64,000 bases of DNA. Origin: Candidatus Omnitrophota bacterium (GTDB taxonomy: Bacteria > Ratteibacteria > UBA8468 > B48-G9 > JAFGKM01). Below the pieces are notes generated by a model that saw nothing but the letters and a program-made list of their open reading frames with translations, searched no databases and had not been told where the DNA came from. Positions 40,556 through 57,737 of this stretch are shown in pieces (position 1 is the stretch's first letter; every line of letters begins with the position of its first letter). Location: positions 9,454-73,453 of the forward strand of contig JAMWCJ010000002.1 in the NCBI GenBank assembly GCA_023818645.1, written 5' to 3'. Both the position numbers and the translations under genes were made by a program.

Positions 40556-41323
40556 TTAAGGAGTCCCATTATAATTTAAAAGAACATCATTACTTAAAAA
40601 TTGCTTTTTTGATAGCCAACTCGCATGACCATCAACAAATAAGATATTTAAACCTCCAGAATGTCTTGCTGCTTGATTGTAATTAGAGCCAACGCCTGGT
40701 GCATCTCCATCAGAAACATTTTTGTATCCATATGGAGAATACCAATCACCACTTCCAAAATGATAGTCACATCTTTCACCATAAGGATTCCAATTATCTC
40801 TTGGAGGTGCATCTGTAACCCATACAGTTTGAGACGGTTTTTTAACTTCAGATAATTTCAACATATTTGGATGTCCGCTGAAAAACCCAGCCCCTCCACG
40901 AAAACCAGCTACTCTACTATTCATTGCCATATTAACACTTCTACTCCATCCATCATACCATCTTTTACTTGAAGGACAAGTAAGAGGATTTGGTTTTTTC
41001 AGTTTTTTTTGTGAACTGGGGAGAGAATAATCAAGATACTTCATCAAATATCCTTCTTCTACAAGAACTCTCCACCAAACTTTTCCTCCATTCCATGAAG
41101 GTAAAAGGTATTCTTCATTGTCATTTGTATACATCATAAGAGCAAGACCAAGTTGTTTTAAATTACTCATACATACTGCACTTCTTGCTCTTTCTCTTGC
41201 ACGAGATAATGCTGGTAAAAGCATCGCTGCCAAAATAGCAATTATCGCTACTACGACTAACAACTCTATTAATGTGAAACCATGTGGTTTTGAAAAGAAC
41301 CTATTTGAAAATTTTTGCTTCAT
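40556..41323 (-). CDS. Prepilin-type N-terminal cleavage/methylation domain protein with an H-X9-DG motif (DUF1559-like pseudopilin)
   Basis: Class-III signal [15 protein letters not shown]|[22 protein letters not shown], with Glu at +5. C-terminal H-X9-DG motif [13 protein letters not shown]. This architecture is abundant in Planctomycetota and related phyla. Confidence 0.85.
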
Positions 41324-41543
41324 ATTGCACCTCCTATAAAATTTAATCTATATATAATCATCCGCATAAATATAGCGGATGGTAAAAGAGAGTATAATGT
41401 GTTCTGCAAAATTACACATTTGAAACTTTTTCTCTTTATAATTTTCATAATTATAATATGTTGACATATCATCTATTTTATCCCTTATAAATTTTTTGTC
41501 AAATATATTTTTACATGTATTTTTATTTTTGTCAAATTTTTGT
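41324..41543 (-). promoter_or_regulatory. Conserved leader/promoter module, copy 1
   Basis: Near-identical to 52074-52280. Contains the RBS (GGAGGTG on the sense strand), a 7-bp-stem hairpin (41359-41381), the palindrome ATGTGT-N11-ACACAT (41397-41419) next to a TATACT -10-like box, and two TTTGACAAA direct repeats. Confidence 0.6.
41359..41381 (-). promoter_or_regulatory. 5'-UTR hairpin, copy 1 (catccgc-N9-gcggatg)
   Basis: Perfect 7-bp inverted repeat 36 nt upstream of the start codon. Identical in copy 2. In copy 3 the sixth stem pair changes from g:c to c:g (catccgC/Gcggatg becomes catccgG/Ccggatg), keeping the stem perfect. Confidence 0.55.
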
Positions 41544-41570
41544 TTTTCTTATATAAAATTTCCTATTTAG

Positions 41571-44500
41571 TCACTCTTTTTCTACTAATTTTTTTTCTTT
41601 TATGAGATAAAATTTGCTATCACCCGCAGGAATAATAACTTCAAAATTCATTCCACCAAAAACAGGTGTATTAGGAGGAGAACAAATTTTTGTTTTTATC
41701 TCTTTTTCTGTTGGATTATGAATTTCTATGAATGGAGGTTTACTTTTATCCTGGCCGTCTACTACAACTGTTATTTTTAAATTTTTATCCTGACTAACAA
41801 AAATATTTCCCACCCAGATTTTGTTCTCTTTTTCAATGGGTTCCTGAAAATACGCAGTATCATTATAAACAGAAACAAATCTAAACCATGGTCTAACTGT
41901 TGAATATATTGCAGCACAGCCATTATCTTCAATTCCTTTGACTCTTATAGGTAAATCTATTATCATATTTTGCGGTCCTAAAGTAAATAATGCTTCATTA
42001 TTTTCTGCTTCTGCAGTGAAAAAGAAAGTTCCGTCCAAAAACCTACCTTTTTCTATTTTGATAGGATATCCTTCTTTCCCGCCTTCTAAATTAAATATTT
42101 TAACTATATTTTCAAGTTCATCGATTCCCGGTCTTTTTTCTGCAAATATGCCATAAAGAAATGAATATTTTAAAACATCCCCCTTTTTTAATTTCTTACC
42201 ATTTTCTCCAAGTCCTATATATATTCTTCCTTCTTTAGATAATAATCCTGCATAACTCCATTCAGTTTGGTCTTCTGATTTTGGAATAAATACTGCTGTA
42301 TAGCCTAAAACAGTAGGTTGCCAGGAGATATAACCGCCTTCTTTAATTTTACCGTTAACATTTTCTTTAGTGAATTTATTATTTAATTTTACAATTCTTG
42401 TTTTATAAGGTTCTTTAACGATTAAAGTATCTCCCCATCCTTTTTCAAAATCAACAGGAGTAGATAAAAATAAGAGAGGGATTGGAACATTACCTTCTAA
42501 TTCTATATCTTTTTTTATTCTTATTTCACCTTCATGCCATACTAATGACCCTTCGTATTTTTCAATTGACTCATAATATCTTCTATAATTCCATTGGACA
42601 AAAAAATCTACTCTATCTGCAGGTGCTATCATTGTATGGCTTCTTTCAAAAAATTCAAGTTCTCCCTGGTTTAATGGTAAACTTGCCATCACTGCGGGTG
42701 GTCTATTTGGTCTATCATGCATTGGTACAAGATGACTTATTAGCATTGAGACAATCTGTAGGTTATAACTGGCAAGTTTAACATCCATAAGTTTTCCTGC
42801 AAATTTATCTTTTGTATACTCGTTATAAACTGATGGATATTCCCCAATACCTTTCACTCTGATAAATTCCAAAGGTAAATCCCTTGGGTTTGGAACTCCA
42901 AGAGATGGGTCTGCTGTATCCCAACCTGTAAGAGCAAATTTATTGCCATTTCTAAAACCTTTACCTAAAGGAAGCATTTCGTTTCTATCAGGGTGCCAGT
43001 AAAAACCAAGAGGCCCAAGTATATTTAAATTATCACTACATCTAAACAATCCTTGCTTATAACAATAAATAAGTATAGTATGTGAAATGGCTTTCTTGTT
43101 TTCATTATCAATTACTTCAAGAGTCAAAAAATGCTGCTTATCATGGACAATTTCAAATTCTTTTGATAAAAGTTTTTCTCCTTTGCCGATAAAATTTCTT
43201 ATTATTCCATAATTTGCATCCCTCACTTTGACTTCTTTTATTCCTTTATTAGAAAAGACCTCAAATTTTAATCTCACTCTTTGGGCACCTCTTGTAAACT
43301 CATAGTTGTTTTCCATTTGGTCATTTATAGATTCCCACTGAAGTATAATTGGACCCTGACTTACATGTTGTTGTCCTTCTTTTGCAAACCAGTAAGGACT
43401 AGCTCTTGCATTTAAAGATTTTTTTACACTCTCTAAATTTTTGAATATTGTTACACATTTTTCCGCTGCAACTTTTAAATCTTTTGGTGATTTTATTTTT
43501 GTATATGAAATCACGGAGTTCCATCTTAAATCCCTCAATCCAAAAAGAAATTCATTATAGTTATCTGCAATTAATTTATCTTTATCATATGCATAGGGGA
43601 TATACATAAAAAAATACCATAAATTATGAGGGTATCCACCAACTTCTCTTAATTTTTTGTAGTCAATAATTCCTGTTTGAGGGAAACCACAATAATAAAA
43701 ATATTGCCCATAATGATTTATTTTCTCACCATCCCATTGAATATACTCATAATTTTTAGAAATAAATTTTTCAGGTGGATATTTTATTCTTTCCCCTAAC
43801 ATTATCCATCTTATCCCCACTCCATCTGTAAACTCTATACCAGGACAGGCATAGAAATTCGTGTCACTTATCTCCTGACATTCTTTTTTTAATGATTCAA
43901 ATTCTTCAGGAGTTAAAAATTCAAGTGGTTCGGTGAATACAATAAATGATAGACCTAACTTCTTTGCTTCTTCTACATAATCTTTAACTTTTCCTTCTCC
44001 ATCAGTGTATGCAGTATGAACTCCTACAATTCCTTTTATTACTTTATCGGACATTTTACCTATTTCAACTTCCCATCCATTTTCAGGCCTTACATATGAT
44101 TTTGAAAAACTATATTTATCCCAAGATATTTCATTCGGAAAAGTTATTCTTTTGTAAGGTTCTATTTTATAAGTCGCAATTTTCCCTGCCTTTTTTGCAT
44201 TTTCCCCAAGATATCTATAAGAATTCATCTGTAACTGCCAACTATCACTTTTTCTACCTGATAATGGGTCTCCTTTTTCTTCAACTATACTTTCCCATAA
44301 AGGATTTAAGTAATTCGCTCCTGTAAAAAGAGGAGAAATTGGGTAGGATACAATTCTGCCTTTTCCAAATTTCCTTGTAGCAAATATTGGTGGTTCTTCT
44401 TTATATGTCCCTTCTGCTTCAAGATTGATCACATTTGGGTTTCCAGAAATACCACTTTTATATGACTTTGCTTCTTTTTCTCCTTTTATCAATATCTCCC

Positions 44501-56771: not shown

Positions 56772-57563
56772 TTAATAACTTACTTTTGGTATTCTTGTAA
56801 AAGGCCAAGCATATTCCCATCCTGCATTTCCATACCAATTTGGATTTGGGCTGTAATTTACATTATAGTATTGTGTATTTTCAAGTATTTCTTTTGGATA
56901 CCACTTTACATGATAATCACAGAAAAGAAGATTTGCTCCATTAGTATGCCTATATTGCCAATGAGAATCCCCCCATCCTTGCCAATTACACGCTCCACAA
57001 TTTGAAGTCCACCAAGGATATATCATTGATTCACCTAAAAGAAGAGTCGCACTTGAATTTTTTAATTGACTTTCTTTGACACCACAACTATCTGGAATAT
57101 ATACACGATTTAAACCAGCAGGTTCAGTACCATATCCTGTATTAAAACCATATCCACCCATATATACATACTCCATTGCTGGATTTTCATAAACTGGTGG
57201 AGGACCTCCTTTCCCATATTTATAATAATTGGGACAATAATAAGCACGCCAGTTTTTAACATAGGGGAAAATCTGCGTTATCCAAAAATGCATCCAACCA
57301 GAACCACCATATCCATAATAATTACCATTAGAATAATATGCAGGATAATAATTATCATAATCATTCAAATACATTGCAAATGCCAATCCAAGTTGTTTCA
57401 AATTGCTCATACAAGTTGCTTGTCTTGCTTTTTCTCTTGCTTTAGAAAGTGCTGGTAAAAGCATCGCTGCCAAAATAGCAATTATTGCTACTACGACTAA
57501 CAACTCTATTAATGTGAACCCATGTAGGTTTTGAGACCTGCTCTTTAAAAATTTTTGCTTCAT
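56772..57563 (-). CDS. Prepilin-type N-terminal cleavage/methylation domain protein (H-X9-DG-like)
   Basis: Class-III signal [15 protein letters not shown]|[23 protein letters not shown]-terminal [13 protein letters not shown] (H-X9-DY variant). Y/G/N/W-rich C-terminal half. Confidence 0.85.
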
Positions 57564-57617
57564 ATTGCACCTCCTAAAAAATTTAATCTATATATAATCA
57601 TCCGGGATAACCGGATG
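57564..57617 (-). promoter_or_regulatory. Leader module copy 3 (partial: RBS plus covarying hairpin 57599-57617)
   Basis: The first roughly 45 nt upstream of the start codon match copies 1 and 2. The hairpin is catccgg-gataa-ccggatg. Further upstream the sequence diverges and contains a (GA)9 tract. Confidence 0.5.
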
Positions 57618-57718
57618 GCAAAATAGGAAGATATATATAATCATCCACCATAATAACTGGTAGATGTAAAATAGAGGATTTTTATAAAAGAGGAAATTTT
57701 TTATAATAATATATCTAC

Positions 57719-57737
57719 GAGAGAGAGAGAGAGAGAG
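57719..57737. repeat. (GA)9 dinucleotide microsatellite in the upstream region of the prepilin-like gene 56772-57563
   Basis: The sequence gagagagagagagagagag is read directly. It lies about 155-175 nt upstream of the start codon, on the non-conserved side of leader copy 3. Confidence 0.9.

What the first reader, a model, noticed from the sequence alone, without database searches (positions are those of the whole stretch)
40556..57737. Three tandem cassettes, each a conserved leader, an H-X9-DG prepilin-like gene and a giant secreted protein
The same architecture recurs three times on the minus strand. A conserved 5' leader with a hairpin precedes a roughly 255-aa class-III-signal pseudopilin-like protein (H-X9-DG/DUF1559 type). 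That is followed by very large signal-peptide proteins of 874 to 1328 aa; the middle copy has an intervening tandem-CBM4/9-like gene. The large proteins carry LamG, CBM-like, GATase1-like and PHP-like modules. The tight and repeated pairing suggests a co-evolving functional module. It may be a pilin-like piece delivering or anchoring a giant polysaccharide-binding or degrading protein through a type-II-secretion / type-IV-pilus-like route. The pairing itself, rather than isolated DUF1559 paralogs, is not a described system as far as I know.
Basis: partly seen in the sequence, partly recalled or inferred. Interest (0 to 1): 0.8.

Follow-up and report, generated by a model that had tools for sequence, protein, structure and literature searches.

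The report
Pilin-led operons for big exported glycan proteins
In this uncultured Omnitrophota bacterium, three neighbouring operons each begin with a pilin-like gene of unknown function (DUF1559), followed by large exported sugar-binding or sugar-degrading-type proteins; relatives repeat this gene order, which gives a testable clue to the role of one of the largest uncharacterised protein families in this group of bacteria.

Summary
Three DUF1559 prepilin-type genes (263, 256 and 255 aa) lie on the minus strand. Each has a near-consensus sigma-70-like promoter, a conserved 5' leader with a covarying hairpin and a strong ribosome-binding site. Each is followed by signal-peptide proteins: 1328 aa; 352 aa (tandem CBM4_9) plus 1266 aa (GH42-like); and 874 aa (LamG/ConA-like) plus three more.

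The large partners are not homologous to one another. A GntR/sugar-binding-type regulator and a fourth large protein (1189 aa, no pilin) lie between units 2 and 3. The 874-aa gene lies outside the stated coordinates.

The window comes from a Candidatus Omnitrophota MAG, inside a glycan-utilisation island next to the ftsQAZ genes. In related loci chosen without regard to context, 7 of 9 pilin genes are followed within two genes by a protein of at least 700 aa. These partners carry CBM, LamG or GH-like domains, and a LacI/GntR regulator often sits upstream. Units 1 and 2 are conserved as units in relatives.

The pairing is not strict: pilin 3's orthologue precedes the 1328-aa protein in two close relatives. 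It is not DUF1559-wide either: only 2 of 60 broadly sampled pilins have a downstream neighbour of 800 aa or more.

My best reading is that these are operon-specific pseudopilin subunits that help export or display the co-expressed proteins. That mechanism is inferred, not shown. Related observations have been published.

The parts
57774..57803 (-). Promoter-like site of unit 1 (TTGACA-18-AATAAT)
   Evidence: 11 of 12 matches. It is one of the three best minus-strand sites that lie upstream of the pilin genes in 40-58.2 kb.
57564..57773 (-). 5' leader of pilin 1. It holds (CT)9.5 at 57719-57737, a distal hairpin at 57642-57666, a proximal hairpin at 57599-57617, an AU-rich box and AGGAGGTG before the ATG.
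   Evidence: Sequence; hairpins; repeat; RNA fold z -2.8; covariance-model match at 87 bits.
56772..57563 (-). Pilin 1: DUF1559 prepilin-type protein, 263 aa, class III signal ...HG|[10 protein letters not shown]-terminal motif H-X9-DY
   Evidence: PF07963 at 34 bits, PF07596 at 53.8 bits, TIGR04294 at 17.6 bits (below the cut-off of 19). Its C-terminal domain is 43% identical to the L118 pilin and 36% to the L022 pilin, both of which precede members of the 1328-aa family.
52767..56753 (-). Large exported protein of unit 1 (1328 aa from TTG; NCBI calls 1321 aa). It has an N-terminal domain of about 190 aa that looks CBM-like by eye but is not confirmed, then a GATase1-like/GIFT domain, a PHP-like barrel and galactose-mutarotase-like beta-sandwiches.
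52074..52766 (-). 693-nt intergenic region holding the unit 2 promoter (52224-52251, TTGACA-16-TAAAAT), the palindrome ATATGTCAACATAT (52205-52218), the hairpin at 52109-52131 and the AU-rich box with the RBS
   Evidence: Positions -200 to -67 are 94% identical to the unit 3 leader.
51303..52073 (-). Pilin 2: DUF1559 prepilin-type protein, 256 aa, degenerate motif H-X9-LG
   Evidence: PF07963 at 36.3 bits and PF07596 at 40.5 bits. Its C-terminal domain is 61% identical to the L119 pilin, which has the same two partners.
50228..51286 (-). Exported tandem CBM_4_9 protein, 352 aa
   Evidence: PF02018 E 5.6e-10 with two stretches. Homologues precede the GH42-like protein in L119 (49% identity) and L118 (44%).
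46415..50215 (-). Exported 1266-aa GH42-like protein (NCBI name: beta-galactosidase)
   Evidence: PF02449 at 32.4 bits against a cut-off of 21; weak GLMA_2nd hit. Homologues at 55% and 47% identity.
45249..46319 (-). GntR-HTH + Peripla_BP_3 (LacI-type sugar-binding) regulator, 356 aa
   Evidence: Regulators with the same architecture lie upstream of pilin-led units in L021, L033, L112, L114 and L118; LacI-type ones lie upstream in L115 and L117.
45141..45203 (-). Leader-box copy (GATTACACATATCTTAAATTTTAAAGGAGG) upstream of the 1189-aa gene, with no pilin gene
   Evidence: Covariance-model hit at 30.1 bits, E 1.5e-4; sequence.
41571..45140 (-). Exported 1189-aa paralogue of the 1328-aa protein (PHP-like/CehA-McbA-like)
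   Evidence: 25% identity over 718 aa, E 1e-39. PHP at 24.2 bits, below cut-off. NF038032 weak hit.
41324..41570 (-). Unit 3 promoter (41475-41502, TTGACA-16-TAAAAT), palindrome at 41456-41469, hairpin at 41359-41381, AU-rich box and RBS
40556..41323 (-). Pilin 3: DUF1559 prepilin-type protein, 255 aa, canonical H-X9-DG
37876..40500 (-).
   Evidence: PF13385 E 4.4e-13 and PF06439 at 27.2 bits. In L002 it directly follows the orthologue of the 1328-aa protein.
31742..37874 (-). Three further exported proteins of unit 3 (599, 801 and 641 aa), two with GATase1_like C-terminal domains. Cytoplasmic GH38, URO-D-like, GFO/IDH/MocA, DUF6807 and FGGY kinase genes follow (24340-31752).
   Evidence: Gene gaps are 0-1 nt or overlaps.

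Best explanation
The region is part of a glycan-utilisation island (about 16.6-58.9 kb of the window) in a Candidatus Omnitrophota genome. It holds three sugar-regulated transcription units.

Each unit starts with its own strong promoter and a structured 5' UTR. The UTR carries a hairpin, an AU-rich box and a strong Shine-Dalgarno sequence. The first gene of each unit encodes a DUF1559 type IV pilin/pseudopilin-class protein. The genes behind it encode Sec-exported, multidomain proteins with lectin-type modules (CBM4_9, LamG/ConA-like) and GH-like, GATase1-like or PHP-like scaffolds. Cytoplasmic sugar-processing enzymes follow.

Proposed mechanism (inferred, not shown): each operon supplies its own pseudopilin-type subunit. 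A prepilin peptidase cleaves this subunit. A type II secretion / type IV pilus-class machine encoded elsewhere then builds it into a short fibre. That fibre helps move the co-expressed large folded proteins across the outer membrane, or holds them at the cell surface. Making the subunit together with its cargo keeps the two in step.
For: **Shown here**
- *Own promoters.* The three best minus-strand sigma-70-like sites upstream of genes in this stretch sit exactly before the three pilins. Gaps between pilin and next gene are 16-55 nt.
- *Exported neighbours.* Signal-like N-termini occur only in the eight genes behind the pilins (1328, 352, 1266, 1189, 874, 599, 801, 641 aa). The enzymes further downstream lack them.
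- *Carbohydrate character of the partners.* Evidence comes from CBM_4_9, Laminin_G_3, 3keto-disac_hyd and GH42 hits. The model of the 1328-aa protein matches GATase1-like, PHP-like and mutarotase-like domains.
- *Recurrence elsewhere:*
  - L110: pilin then 1013 aa (CBM9 + GH42M), as an isolated two-gene unit.
  - L112: regulator, pilin, 685 and 899 aa; then pilin, LamG protein, 1152 aa (GH123_N).
  - L113: pilin, LamG protein, 1127 aa.
  - L114: pilin, 329 aa, 795 aa.
  - L115: LacI regulator, pilin, 983 aa.
  - L117 (Victivallales): pilin, 259 aa, 1235 aa.
  - L118 and L119 show the same pattern.
- *Machinery exists in such genomes.* T2SSE/MshEN ATPase genes lie within 10 kb in L114 and L115.

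**From the literature**
- DUF1559 proteins are expressed and fractionate with membranes in Tuwongella. Their genes are often flanked by signal-peptide genes (PMC8567305).
- Giant Omnitrophota genes are preceded by T2SS-like loci with small class-III-signal genes (bioRxiv 10.1101/2023.11.21.568195).
- Established knowledge, not tested here: the Klebsiella pul regulon co-regulates a large pullulanase with the pseudopilin genes needed to secrete it.
Against: - No secretin, platform protein, ATPase or prepilin peptidase lies in the 64-kb window.
- The three pilins score only 40-44 bits on the GspG equivalog model against a cut-off of 88.85, and only over the N-terminal helix.
- Partner specificity is loose. 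Orthologues of the 1328-aa protein at 76-80% identity are preceded by pilin-3-type genes in L002 and L107/L108 but by pilin 1 in the window. The C-terminal domains of pilins 1 and 3 show no BLAST similarity to each other.
- Most homologues of the 1328-aa protein (16 of 21 informative loci) have no pilin nearby.
- The 1189-aa exported protein has no pilin of its own.
- No experiment or interaction prediction links any pilin to any cargo.
Confidence: 0.42

Rival explanations
1. Glycan-capture fibre or 'bindosome-like' reading. The variable C-terminal domain of each pilin binds the operon's target glycan. The pilins form, or decorate, a surface fibre or membrane-anchored array that holds substrate near the exported enzymes. 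They have no role in exporting those enzymes.
For: - The C-terminal domains are highly variable while the first 75 residues are 80-100% conserved. This is typical of ligand-facing pilin regions.
- LacI/GntR sugar-sensing regulators lie upstream of many units.
- Two non-homologous pilin types serve the same enzyme orthologue. That is easier to accept if the pilin recognises a glycan rather than the enzyme.
- Pfam historically named the family SBP_bac_10.
- Known analogues, from established knowledge and not tested here: Sulfolobus sugar-binding proteins with class III signals, and pilin-type cellulose-binding proteins of Ruminococcus albus.
Against: - The pilin 3 model is a compact pilin fold with no separate lectin domain. 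The variable loop at residues 179-214 is low confidence.
- Each unit already carries dedicated lectin modules (CBM4_9, LamG), fused or as a separate gene.
- No sugar transporter lies in the window for a capture function to feed.
Confidence: 0.25
2. No direct functional coupling. DUF1559 genes, with their conserved promoter, leader and 5' coding region, act as portable expression heads and recombination sites. Exported-protein genes end up behind them through shuffling and shared regulation. The pilins themselves serve a general envelope function.
For: - The promoter and leader of units 2 and 3 are 94-97% identical, while the adjacent coding N-termini are 84% identical.
- Contigs of relatives break inside the repeated pilin 5' region (L002, L108).
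- Pilin/partner combinations differ between close relatives.
- The leader box also occurs before the 1189-aa gene, with no pilin.
- In the broad DUF1559 sample the downstream gene is usually small (median 192 aa).
Against: - 7 of 9 context-blind pilins in the near subfamily have a protein of at least 700 aa within two genes, against about 5% for control ORFs.
- Subtype-to-partner links persist across phyla. Pilin-1-type precedes the 1328-aa family in window/L118/L021 and in L022, a Verrucomicrobia MAG. Pilin-2-type precedes the CBM + GH42-like pair in L119.
- All exported proteins of the island sit behind pilins.
Confidence: 0.18
3. Prey-directed reading. The island is not for environmental polysaccharide use. 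It encodes secreted cell-wall-binding and cell-wall-degrading proteins, used with a pilus or secretion apparatus during attachment to host or prey cells, as proposed for the giant Omnitrophota proteins.
For: [quoted passage not shown]
- Most Omnitrophota are reported to be ultra-small and to carry host-dependent traits (PMC10066038, abstract listed).
- The window has no sugar importer.
Against: - The island also encodes a full cytoplasmic sugar-processing set: GH38, GH35/42, GFO/IDH/MocA, DUF6807 and an FGGY kinase. It also encodes a sugar-sensing regulator, which is typical of nutritional glycan use.
- The proteins here are about 1,000 aa, not the very large proteins of those reports.
- No peptidoglycan-specific domain was found in the partners.
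Confidence: 0.12

Closest known systems
DUF1559 / H-X9-DG prepilin-type paralogous family of Planctomycetota and other PVC bacteria (PF07596, TIGR04294)
   Same: - Same N-terminal class III signal and helix, and the same Pfam family.
- Large paralogue numbers: 74 in R. baltica, 68 in P. limnophila, 91 in T. immobilis.
[quoted passage not shown]
   Different: - In the broad, mostly high-GC sample the downstream neighbour is small (median 192 aa).
- Here and in the near subfamily it is a protein of roughly 800-1300 aa with CBM, LamG or GH-like domains, often behind a LacI/GntR regulator.
- Only one of the three window copies keeps a canonical H-X9-DG motif.
Type II secretion with a co-regulated glycan-degrading cargo (Klebsiella oxytoca pul regulon: PulA pullulanase plus pulC-O including PulG; established knowledge)
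   Same: - A pseudopilin-class protein is co-regulated with a large Sec-exported polysaccharide-active protein under a sugar-responsive regulator.
- The pilin 3 model matches EpsG and PulG.
   Different: - There is one pilin-like gene per operon and no secretin, ATPase or platform genes alongside.
- The GspG equivalog threshold is not met.
- There are many alternative pilin variants rather than one major pseudopilin.
T2SS/T4P-like loci and small class-III-signal genes next to giant genes in Omnitrophota (West-Roberts et al., bioRxiv 10.1101/2023.11.21.568195; bioRxiv 10.64898/2026.06.07.730766)
   Same: - Same phylum.
- Very large exported carbohydrate-related proteins lie next to pilin or secretion genes.
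- The SusC/D architecture is absent.
   Different: - Those reports concern far larger proteins (one is 147,155 aa) preceded by a secretion locus of more than 10 subunits.
- Here single DUF1559 genes head ordinary operons whose large proteins are 599-1328 aa, with their own promoter and leader.
Bacteroidota polysaccharide utilisation loci (SusC/SusD type; established knowledge)
   Same: Sugar-regulated operons that combine a surface or envelope binding component, lectin/CBM modules, exported enzymes and downstream cytoplasmic enzymes.
   Different: No TonB-dependent transporter and no SusD-like gene lie in the window. A pilin-class protein occupies the leading position.
Archaeal bindosome (Sulfolobus sugar-binding proteins with class III signal peptides) and pilin-type cellulose-binding proteins of Ruminococcus/Fibrobacter (established knowledge, not tested here)
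   Same: Pilin-type N-termini are used in carbohydrate acquisition.
   Different: - Those proteins are themselves solute-binding or cellulose-binding proteins.
- The DUF1559 C-terminal domain modelled here is a small pilin head with no recognisable binding fold.

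Membership tests
Type IV pilin / pseudopilin superfamily | Class III signal peptide: short basic leader, G at -1, F at +1, E at +5, followed by a hydrophobic helix | tested here: met
   The sequence ...KPHG|[24 protein letters not shown] occurs in all three. 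PF07963 scores 34-36 bits against 21.2. TIGR02532 scores 31-35 bits against 16.3.
Type IV pilin / pseudopilin superfamily | Long N-terminal alpha-helix packed on a small antiparallel beta-sheet (pilin fold) | tested here: met
Type IV pilin / pseudopilin superfamily | Prepilin peptidase and assembly ATPase/platform genes in the same genome | not testable with these tools
   None lie in the 64-kb window. The rest of the MAG could not be read. T2SSE genes lie near pilin units in L114 and L115.
DUF1559 (PF07596, SBP_bac_10) | Score above the Pfam gathering threshold | tested here: met
   53.8, 40.5 and 42.9 bits against 23.3. The matches cover only profile positions 2-36 to 2-60 of 268, so the C-terminal parts are divergent.
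H-X9-DG C-terminal domain (TIGR04294) | H-X9-DG motif scoring at least 19 bits | tested here: inconclusive
   Pilin 3 scores 25.4 (met). Pilin 1 scores 17.6 and reads H-X9-DY. Pilin 2 has no hit and reads H-X9-LG. Across 59 homologues H221, N226, D231 and H233 are at least 90% conserved.
T2SS major pseudopilin GspG (TIGR01710 equivalog) | Whole-protein score at least 88.85 bits | tested here: not met
   40.1-44.3 bits, over N-terminal residues 14-74 only.
Verru_Chthon cassette proteins (TIGR02596/TIGR02599) | Score above the family cut-offs (70 / 256.5 bits) | tested here: not met
   15.7-23.2 bits, N-terminal helix only.
Bacteroidota-type PUL | Adjacent SusC-like TonB-dependent transporter and SusD-like gene | tested here: not met
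   Pfam scans of all 46 ORFs of at least 130 aa found none. The only porin-like gene (89-1258) belongs to the pst phosphate locus.
Omnitrophota giant-gene / T2SS-like locus (West-Roberts et al.) | A giant gene preceded by a multi-subunit gspD/E/F-containing secretion locus | tested here: not met
   The largest protein is 1328 aa, and the window has no gspD/E/F.
Glycoside hydrolase family 42 (for the 1266-aa protein) | PF02449 above threshold, with the catalytic TIM barrel covered | tested here: inconclusive
   32.4 bits against 21, but only profile positions 121-215 of 376 are matched. There is no PDB sequence relative. NCBI names it beta-galactosidase.
PHP metal-dependent phosphoesterases (for the 1328/1189-aa family) | PHP fold with conserved metal-binding His/Asp | tested here: inconclusive

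The most novel reading that the evidence does not exclude
DUF1559 pseudopilins could be the substrate-specific module of a SusC/D-independent 'pilin-PUL' system shared by Omnitrophota, Lentisphaerota and some other PVC lineages. In this reading, each glycan operon contributes its own pilin variant, under a shared structured leader RNA, to a common T2SS/T4P-class machine. The fibre's composition would then be re-programmed for each substrate, either to export and tether that operon's large enzymes or to capture its glycan. This would assign a function to one of the largest orphan paralogue families in these phyla.
Probability: 0.25. Interest if true: 0.8.

Novelty: new variant of a known kind. 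Interest (0 to 1): 0.55.

Why it matters
- **An orphan family.** DUF1559/H-X9-DG proteins are among the most expanded families in Planctomycetota and their relatives, with 68-91 copies per genome. No function has been assigned to them.
- **A concrete hypothesis.** In one subfamily these genes repeatedly head sugar-regulated operons for large exported proteins with CBM, LamG or GH-like domains. This turns the family's function into a testable question: is the pilin needed to export or display the neighbouring proteins, or to capture glycan?
- **Glycan use without SusC/D.** It also suggests how these SusC/D-less bacteria organise glycan degradation.
- **Two side products.**
  - A conserved, covarying 5' UTR hairpin motif that is absent from Rfam.
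  - A widespread, confidently modelled family of about 1,150-aa exported proteins (GATase1-like + PHP-like + mutarotase-like) with no known activity.

Tried and rejected
- **Family-wide pairing.** I sampled 80 metagenome loci with DUF1559 genes. The same-strand downstream ORF has a median of 192 aa and only 2 of 60 reach 800 aa. With a looser test (at least 700 aa within 1.5 kb) the result is 5 of 34 against 5.3% for control ORFs. I rejected the pairing as a general DUF1559 property. My ORF caller is crude in high-GC DNA.
- **Obligate pairing from the large-protein side.** In 25 genome loci with homologues of the 1328-aa protein, only 5 of 21 informative loci have a pilin within 4 kb upstream. 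I rejected obligate pairing.
- **Homology among the three large partners.** All-against-all BLASTP shows none except 1328 aa against 1189 aa.
- **Known RNA family for the leader.** There were no Rfam hits at gathering thresholds. Three chance-level hits appeared at E up to 1.
- **Hairpin as an intrinsic terminator.** The scan flags it, but the tail is ATTATATATA rather than a U-run, and it sits 37 nt before the start codon of the gene it precedes. I rejected this reading.
- **Leader exclusive to pilin genes.** The covariance model also hits upstream of the 1189-aa gene. I rejected exclusivity.
- **N-terminal 198 aa of the 1328-aa protein as a CBM4_9 relative.** BLASTP against the 352-aa CBM protein gives E 0.08. 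This is not demonstrated.
- **Solved structures.** Sequence searches for the pilins matched only N-terminal helices. The 1266-aa and 874-aa proteins gave nothing useful.
- **First related-loci scan.** The 16-sequence alignment had no usable conserved stretch, so I repeated it with 10 sequences.
- **Literature.** Searches for H-X9-DG, for prepilin with Planctomycetes, for pseudopilin with Lentisphaerae, for Victivall* with pilin and for Kiritimatiell* with pilin found nothing relevant.

Full report
**Source and setting**

The window is AT-rich, at about 28% G+C. It matches a 74.8-kb contig of a Candidatus Omnitrophica MAG at 100% identity (P0001, P0054, P0174). A 3.7-kb contig of GCA_023819585.1 also carries pilin 3 and its neighbours.

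Almost all genes from 10.5 to 63.8 kb are on the minus strand. Upstream in the transcription sense lie ddl, ftsQ, ftsA and ftsZ. The far end of the window is housekeeping: the pst phosphate-transport operon, tRNA synthetases, dprA and rpsI.

Between about 16.6 and 58.9 kb lies a carbohydrate island. It includes:
- a xylose-isomerase-like TIM barrel and three URO-D-like paralogues;
- the region of the finding;
- GH38, GFO/IDH/MocA, DUF6807, an FGGY kinase and a GH35/42 enzyme.

**Check of the observation**

The three pilin-like ORFs, their leaders and the large downstream ORFs are all present.
- A 56-nt pattern spanning the leader and the start codon occurs exactly three times, against none expected.
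- The three proteins share MKQKF...HG|[25 protein letters not shown].
- They pass N_methyl and DUF1559 thresholds.
- Only pilin 3 passes the H-X9-DG model.
- The first 75 residues are about 80% identical, but overall identity is only 35-38%.

In the direction of transcription the layout is:

| Element | Size | Distance from the previous gene |
|---|---|---|
| promoter/leader 1, then pilin 1 | 263 aa | 391 nt after the URO-D-like gene |
| large protein of unit 1 | 1328 aa | 18 nt |
| promoter/leader 2, then pilin 2 | 256 aa | 693-nt spacer |
| tandem CBM4_9 protein | 352 aa | 16 nt |
| GH42-like protein | 1266 aa | 12 nt |
| GntR/Peripla_BP_3 regulator | 356 aa | 95 nt |
| paralogue of the 1328-aa protein | 1189 aa | 108 nt |
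| promoter/leader 3, then pilin 3 | 255 aa | 247 nt |
| LamG/ConA-like protein | 874 aa | 55 nt |
| 599, 801 and 641 aa proteins, GH38 and further genes | – | gaps of 0-1 nt or overlaps |

- The 874-aa gene lies outside the stated coordinates.
- The regulator and the 1189-aa protein break the simple tandem pattern.
- The large partners are unrelated families. Only the 1328-aa and 1189-aa proteins are paralogues.

**Promoters and leader RNA**

The three best minus-strand sigma-70-like sites that lie upstream of genes in this stretch sit just before the three pilins. These are TTGACA-16-TAAAAT (twice) and TTGACA-18-AATAAT, each matching 11 of 12 positions. One other 11/12 site falls inside the 1266-aa gene.

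Each leader ends with the same arrangement: a hairpin, then an AU-rich box (GATTATATATAGATTAAATTTTATAGGAGGTGCAATATG). Leader 1 carries a second, upstream hairpin (CAUCUACC/GGUGGAUG). Its U-G pair forms only in the sense RNA. Folding z-scores are modest, at -2.1 to -2.8.

The same arrangement occurs upstream of pilin genes in other Omnitrophota contigs, with different stem sequences:
- ATCCGG/CCGGAT in L110;
- CAGAAG/CTTCTG in L113;
- CAGGAC/GTCCTG in L107;
- CAGGCC/GGCCTG in L114.

I built a covariance model from four copies. It recovers 11 sites at E up to 0.05. On that model-fitted alignment:
- 96.6% of cells pair;
- 6 of 7 pairs show changes on both sides;
- no shuffle in 500 reaches the observed values;
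- slid controls pair at only 21-47%.

Because the alignment was fitted to the structure, these numbers lean towards it. There is no Rfam match.

One hit lies upstream of the 1189-aa gene, so the box is not exclusive to pilins.

Leaders 2 and 3 are 94-97% identical, which is more than the adjacent coding sequence at 84%. They also share two palindromes close to the predicted start site. I infer a common operator, plausibly for the regulator encoded between them.

I read the leader as a 5' UTR element that stabilises the mRNA or enhances translation of abundantly made first genes. This is inference.

**The pilin-like proteins**

The profile of the three proteins matches solved structures only through the N-terminal helix of type IV pilins and GspG. 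An AlphaFold2 model of pilin 3 was built with 59 homologues and reached pLDDT 76. It shows a helix of about 50 residues and a four-stranded sheet.

Across the 59 homologues, C51, Y65, D68 and C116 are invariant. H221, N226, D231 and H233 are at least 90% conserved. This suggests a disulfide bond and perhaps a metal site, which is inference.

The proteins do not reach the GspG or Verru_Chthon cassette cut-offs.

**The large proteins**

Signal-like N-termini occur in the 1328, 352, 1266, 1189, 874, 599, 801 and 641 aa proteins. They are absent from the enzymes further downstream. Every exported protein of the island therefore sits behind a pilin gene.

Each unit carries a lectin-type module:
- the CBM4_9 gene in unit 2;
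- Laminin_G_3 and a 3-keto-disaccharide-hydrolase-like domain in the 874-aa protein;
- possibly the N-terminal 190 residues of the 1328-aa protein, although this is not demonstrated.

The core of the 1328-aa protein models with high confidence (pLDDT 91.8, pTM 0.90). It has three kinds of domain:
- galactose-mutarotase-like sandwiches (OpgD/OpgG, the GH36 N-terminal domain).

The usual PHP histidines are not conserved. Invariant residues cluster instead in FCSDHVN and TWDGGP motifs in the sandwich region. Its activity is unknown.

**Conservation of the gene order**

*Unit 1.*
- In L107/L108 (76% identity) a pilin lies 18 nt upstream of the orthologue of the 1328-aa protein.
- In L002 (80% identity) the contig starts inside such a pilin.
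- Pilin-1-type heads precede family members in three further loci:
  - L118: a GntR-type regulator, a pilin, then a 1156-aa protein that is 26% identical over 1185 aa.
  - L021.
  - L022, a Verrucomicrobia MAG.
- A high-GC locus found through the pilin alone (L101) also has two pilins followed by a 1141-aa family member.

*Unit 2.* L119 repeats the order pilin, then CBM4_9, then a 1255-aa protein. The partner is 55% identical and the pilin head 61% identical.

They gave nine pilins in seven loci.

| Locus | Gene order downstream of the pilin |
|---|---|
| L110 | pilin, then 1013 aa (CBM9 + GH42M); an isolated pair between CODH/ACS and OmpA genes |
| L112 | regulator, pilin, 685 aa (LamG + beta-helix), 899 aa; then pilin, LamG protein, 1152 aa (GH123_N) |
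| L113 | pilin, LamG protein, 1127 aa |
| L114 | pilin, 329 aa, 795 aa (GH123_N), CBM9 protein |
| L115 | LacI regulator, pilin, 983 aa; then pilin, MTTB (455 aa) |
| L116 | pilin, 536-aa pectate-lyase-like protein |
| L117 (Victivallales) | LacI regulator ... pilin, 259 aa, 1235 aa |

Seven of the nine pilins have a protein of at least 700 aa within two genes. A crude control rate is about 5%.

**Limits of the pairing**

- In both close relatives, L002 and L107/L108, the pilin before the orthologue of the 1328-aa protein is the orthologue of window pilin 3. DNA identity is 75-78% through the variable head, and head protein identity is 55-69%. In the window, pilin 3 precedes the 874-aa gene, and the 1328-aa gene has pilin 1.
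- In L002 the 874-aa gene directly follows the orthologue of the 1328-aa protein. The window segment 41.3-52.8 kb has no counterpart there. Combinations are therefore reshuffled over short evolutionary distances.
- 16 of 21 informative loci with homologues of the 1328-aa protein have no pilin nearby. L109, at 59% identity, has none.
- Across 60 broadly sampled DUF1559 genes, mostly from high-GC DNA, the downstream ORF is usually small.

**Literature**

DUF1559 has no assigned function in the library I could search. Two earlier observations lower the novelty:
[quoted passage not shown] 25 of them were detected in membrane fractions (PMC8567305).
- Giant Omnitrophota genes are preceded by T2SS/T4P-like loci with small class-III-signal genes and have glycoside hydrolases nearby. 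[quoted passage not shown]

I found no paper describing single DUF1559 genes heading regulator-controlled operons for CBM, LamG or GH-like proteins of about 1,000 aa.

**Mechanism**

*Shown here:*
- The proteins belong to the pilin class.
- Each has its own promoter and leader.
- They are positioned to be co-transcribed with exported, lectin-bearing large proteins.
- The order is conserved within a subfamily.
- Sugar-type regulators lie upstream.

*Inferred:*
- The pilin is cleaved and polymerised by a T2SS/T4P-class machine encoded elsewhere.
- It helps export or display the operon's large proteins. This is my preferred reading (0.42).

*Rivals:*
- a glycan-capture fibre (0.25);
- no direct coupling, with the pilin 5' region acting as a portable expression head and recombination site (0.18);
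- a prey-directed version of the same apparatus (0.12).

The swap of pilin types in front of the same enzyme argues against a tight protein-protein lock and key. The persistence of subtype-to-partner links across phyla argues against pure chance.

**Verdict**

The architecture is real and recurrent. It is a lineage-specific variant of known themes: pseudopilins co-regulated with secreted glycan enzymes, and DUF1559 genes lying beside exported proteins. It is of moderate-to-good interest because it offers a concrete functional hypothesis for a very large orphan family. It also yields a candidate new leader RNA motif and a new, well-modelled family of exported proteins.

Noticed in passing
window 57719-57737 (minus strand, leader of pilin 1): A perfect (CT)9.5 dinucleotide tract lies about 30-50 nt downstream of the predicted transcription start. 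The same position holds CT tracts of different length in related contigs: longer in L032 and about 5 units in L116. This could be a slipped-strand, phase-variable element.
   Followed up: partly
window 52205-52218 and 41456-41469; also 52145-52170 and 41395-41420: Leaders 2 and 3 share two palindromes, ATATGTCAACATAT at the predicted start site and ATGTGT-N11-ACACAT. Their upstream 134 nt are 94% identical, more than the coding N-termini at 84%. They are likely shared operator sites, perhaps for the GntR/PBP regulator at 45249-46319.
   Followed up: partly
window 45141-45203: The conserved leader box (GATTACACATATCTTAAATTTTAAAGGAGG) also precedes the 1189-aa gene, which has no pilin. This could be a remnant of a lost pilin unit or a general translation-initiation module.
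   Followed up: partly
window 52430-52510 within the 693-nt spacer: A G+C-rich patch (…AACCAGACCCTCCTGTATGGGTAAATTACCTGCATGGCGTCTGGGCAGAGCCTG…) sits in an otherwise AT-rich intergenic region. It has no ORF of at least 40 aa on the sense strand and no Rfam match. Its origin is unexplained.
   Followed up: partly
window 24340-29310, 37876-40500, 57955-59785 and 19905-21008: The island holds an enzyme set reminiscent of oxidative (3-keto) glycoside cleavage: GFO/IDH/MocA oxidoreductase, DUF6807, a xylose-isomerase-like TIM barrel, and a 3-keto-disaccharide-hydrolase-like domain in the 874-aa protein. It also holds three URO-D-like paralogues. URO-D-like genes also lie next to homologues of the 1328-aa protein in L007, L024 and L117.
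   Followed up: no
window 52767-56753 and 41571-45140; loci L002-L026: The 1328/1189-aa family is spread over MAGs labelled Omnitrophota, Victivallaceae, Planctomycetota, Armatimonadota, Verrucomicrobiota, Kiritimatiellia and Acidobacteriota, plus one labelled Pseudomonadota. It models at pLDDT 92. It lacks the PHP histidines but has invariant FCSDHVN and TWDGGP motifs in a mutarotase-like domain. It is a candidate new carbohydrate-active family.
   Followed up: partly
L002 1-14638 compared with window 30633-57494: A relative at about 80% identity has the order pilin-3-like, orthologue of the 1328-aa protein, then the 874, 599, 801 and 641 aa proteins and GH38. It has no counterpart of window 41.3-52.8 kb (pilin 2, CBM protein, 1266-aa protein, regulator, 1189-aa protein). 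Contigs of relatives also break inside the repeated pilin 5' region.
   Followed up: partly
L110 10001-13806: A stand-alone pair lies between CODH/ACS genes and OmpA-like genes in another Omnitrophota MAG: a pilin of 245 aa followed by a 1013-aa CBM9 + GH42M protein. It has the same hairpin and box leader. This is the cleanest minimal example of the cassette.
   Followed up: partly
window 1-64000: No sugar transporter (ABC, MFS, PTS or TonB-dependent) is encoded anywhere in the window, despite the large glycan island. The only ABC system is the pst phosphate operon (1273-5417).
   Followed up: yes
protein P0133: A DUF1559 protein that is 37% identical to pilin 3 is deposited as Candidatus Aenigmatarchaeota archaeon. 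It is probably a mis-binned bacterial contig.
   Followed up: no
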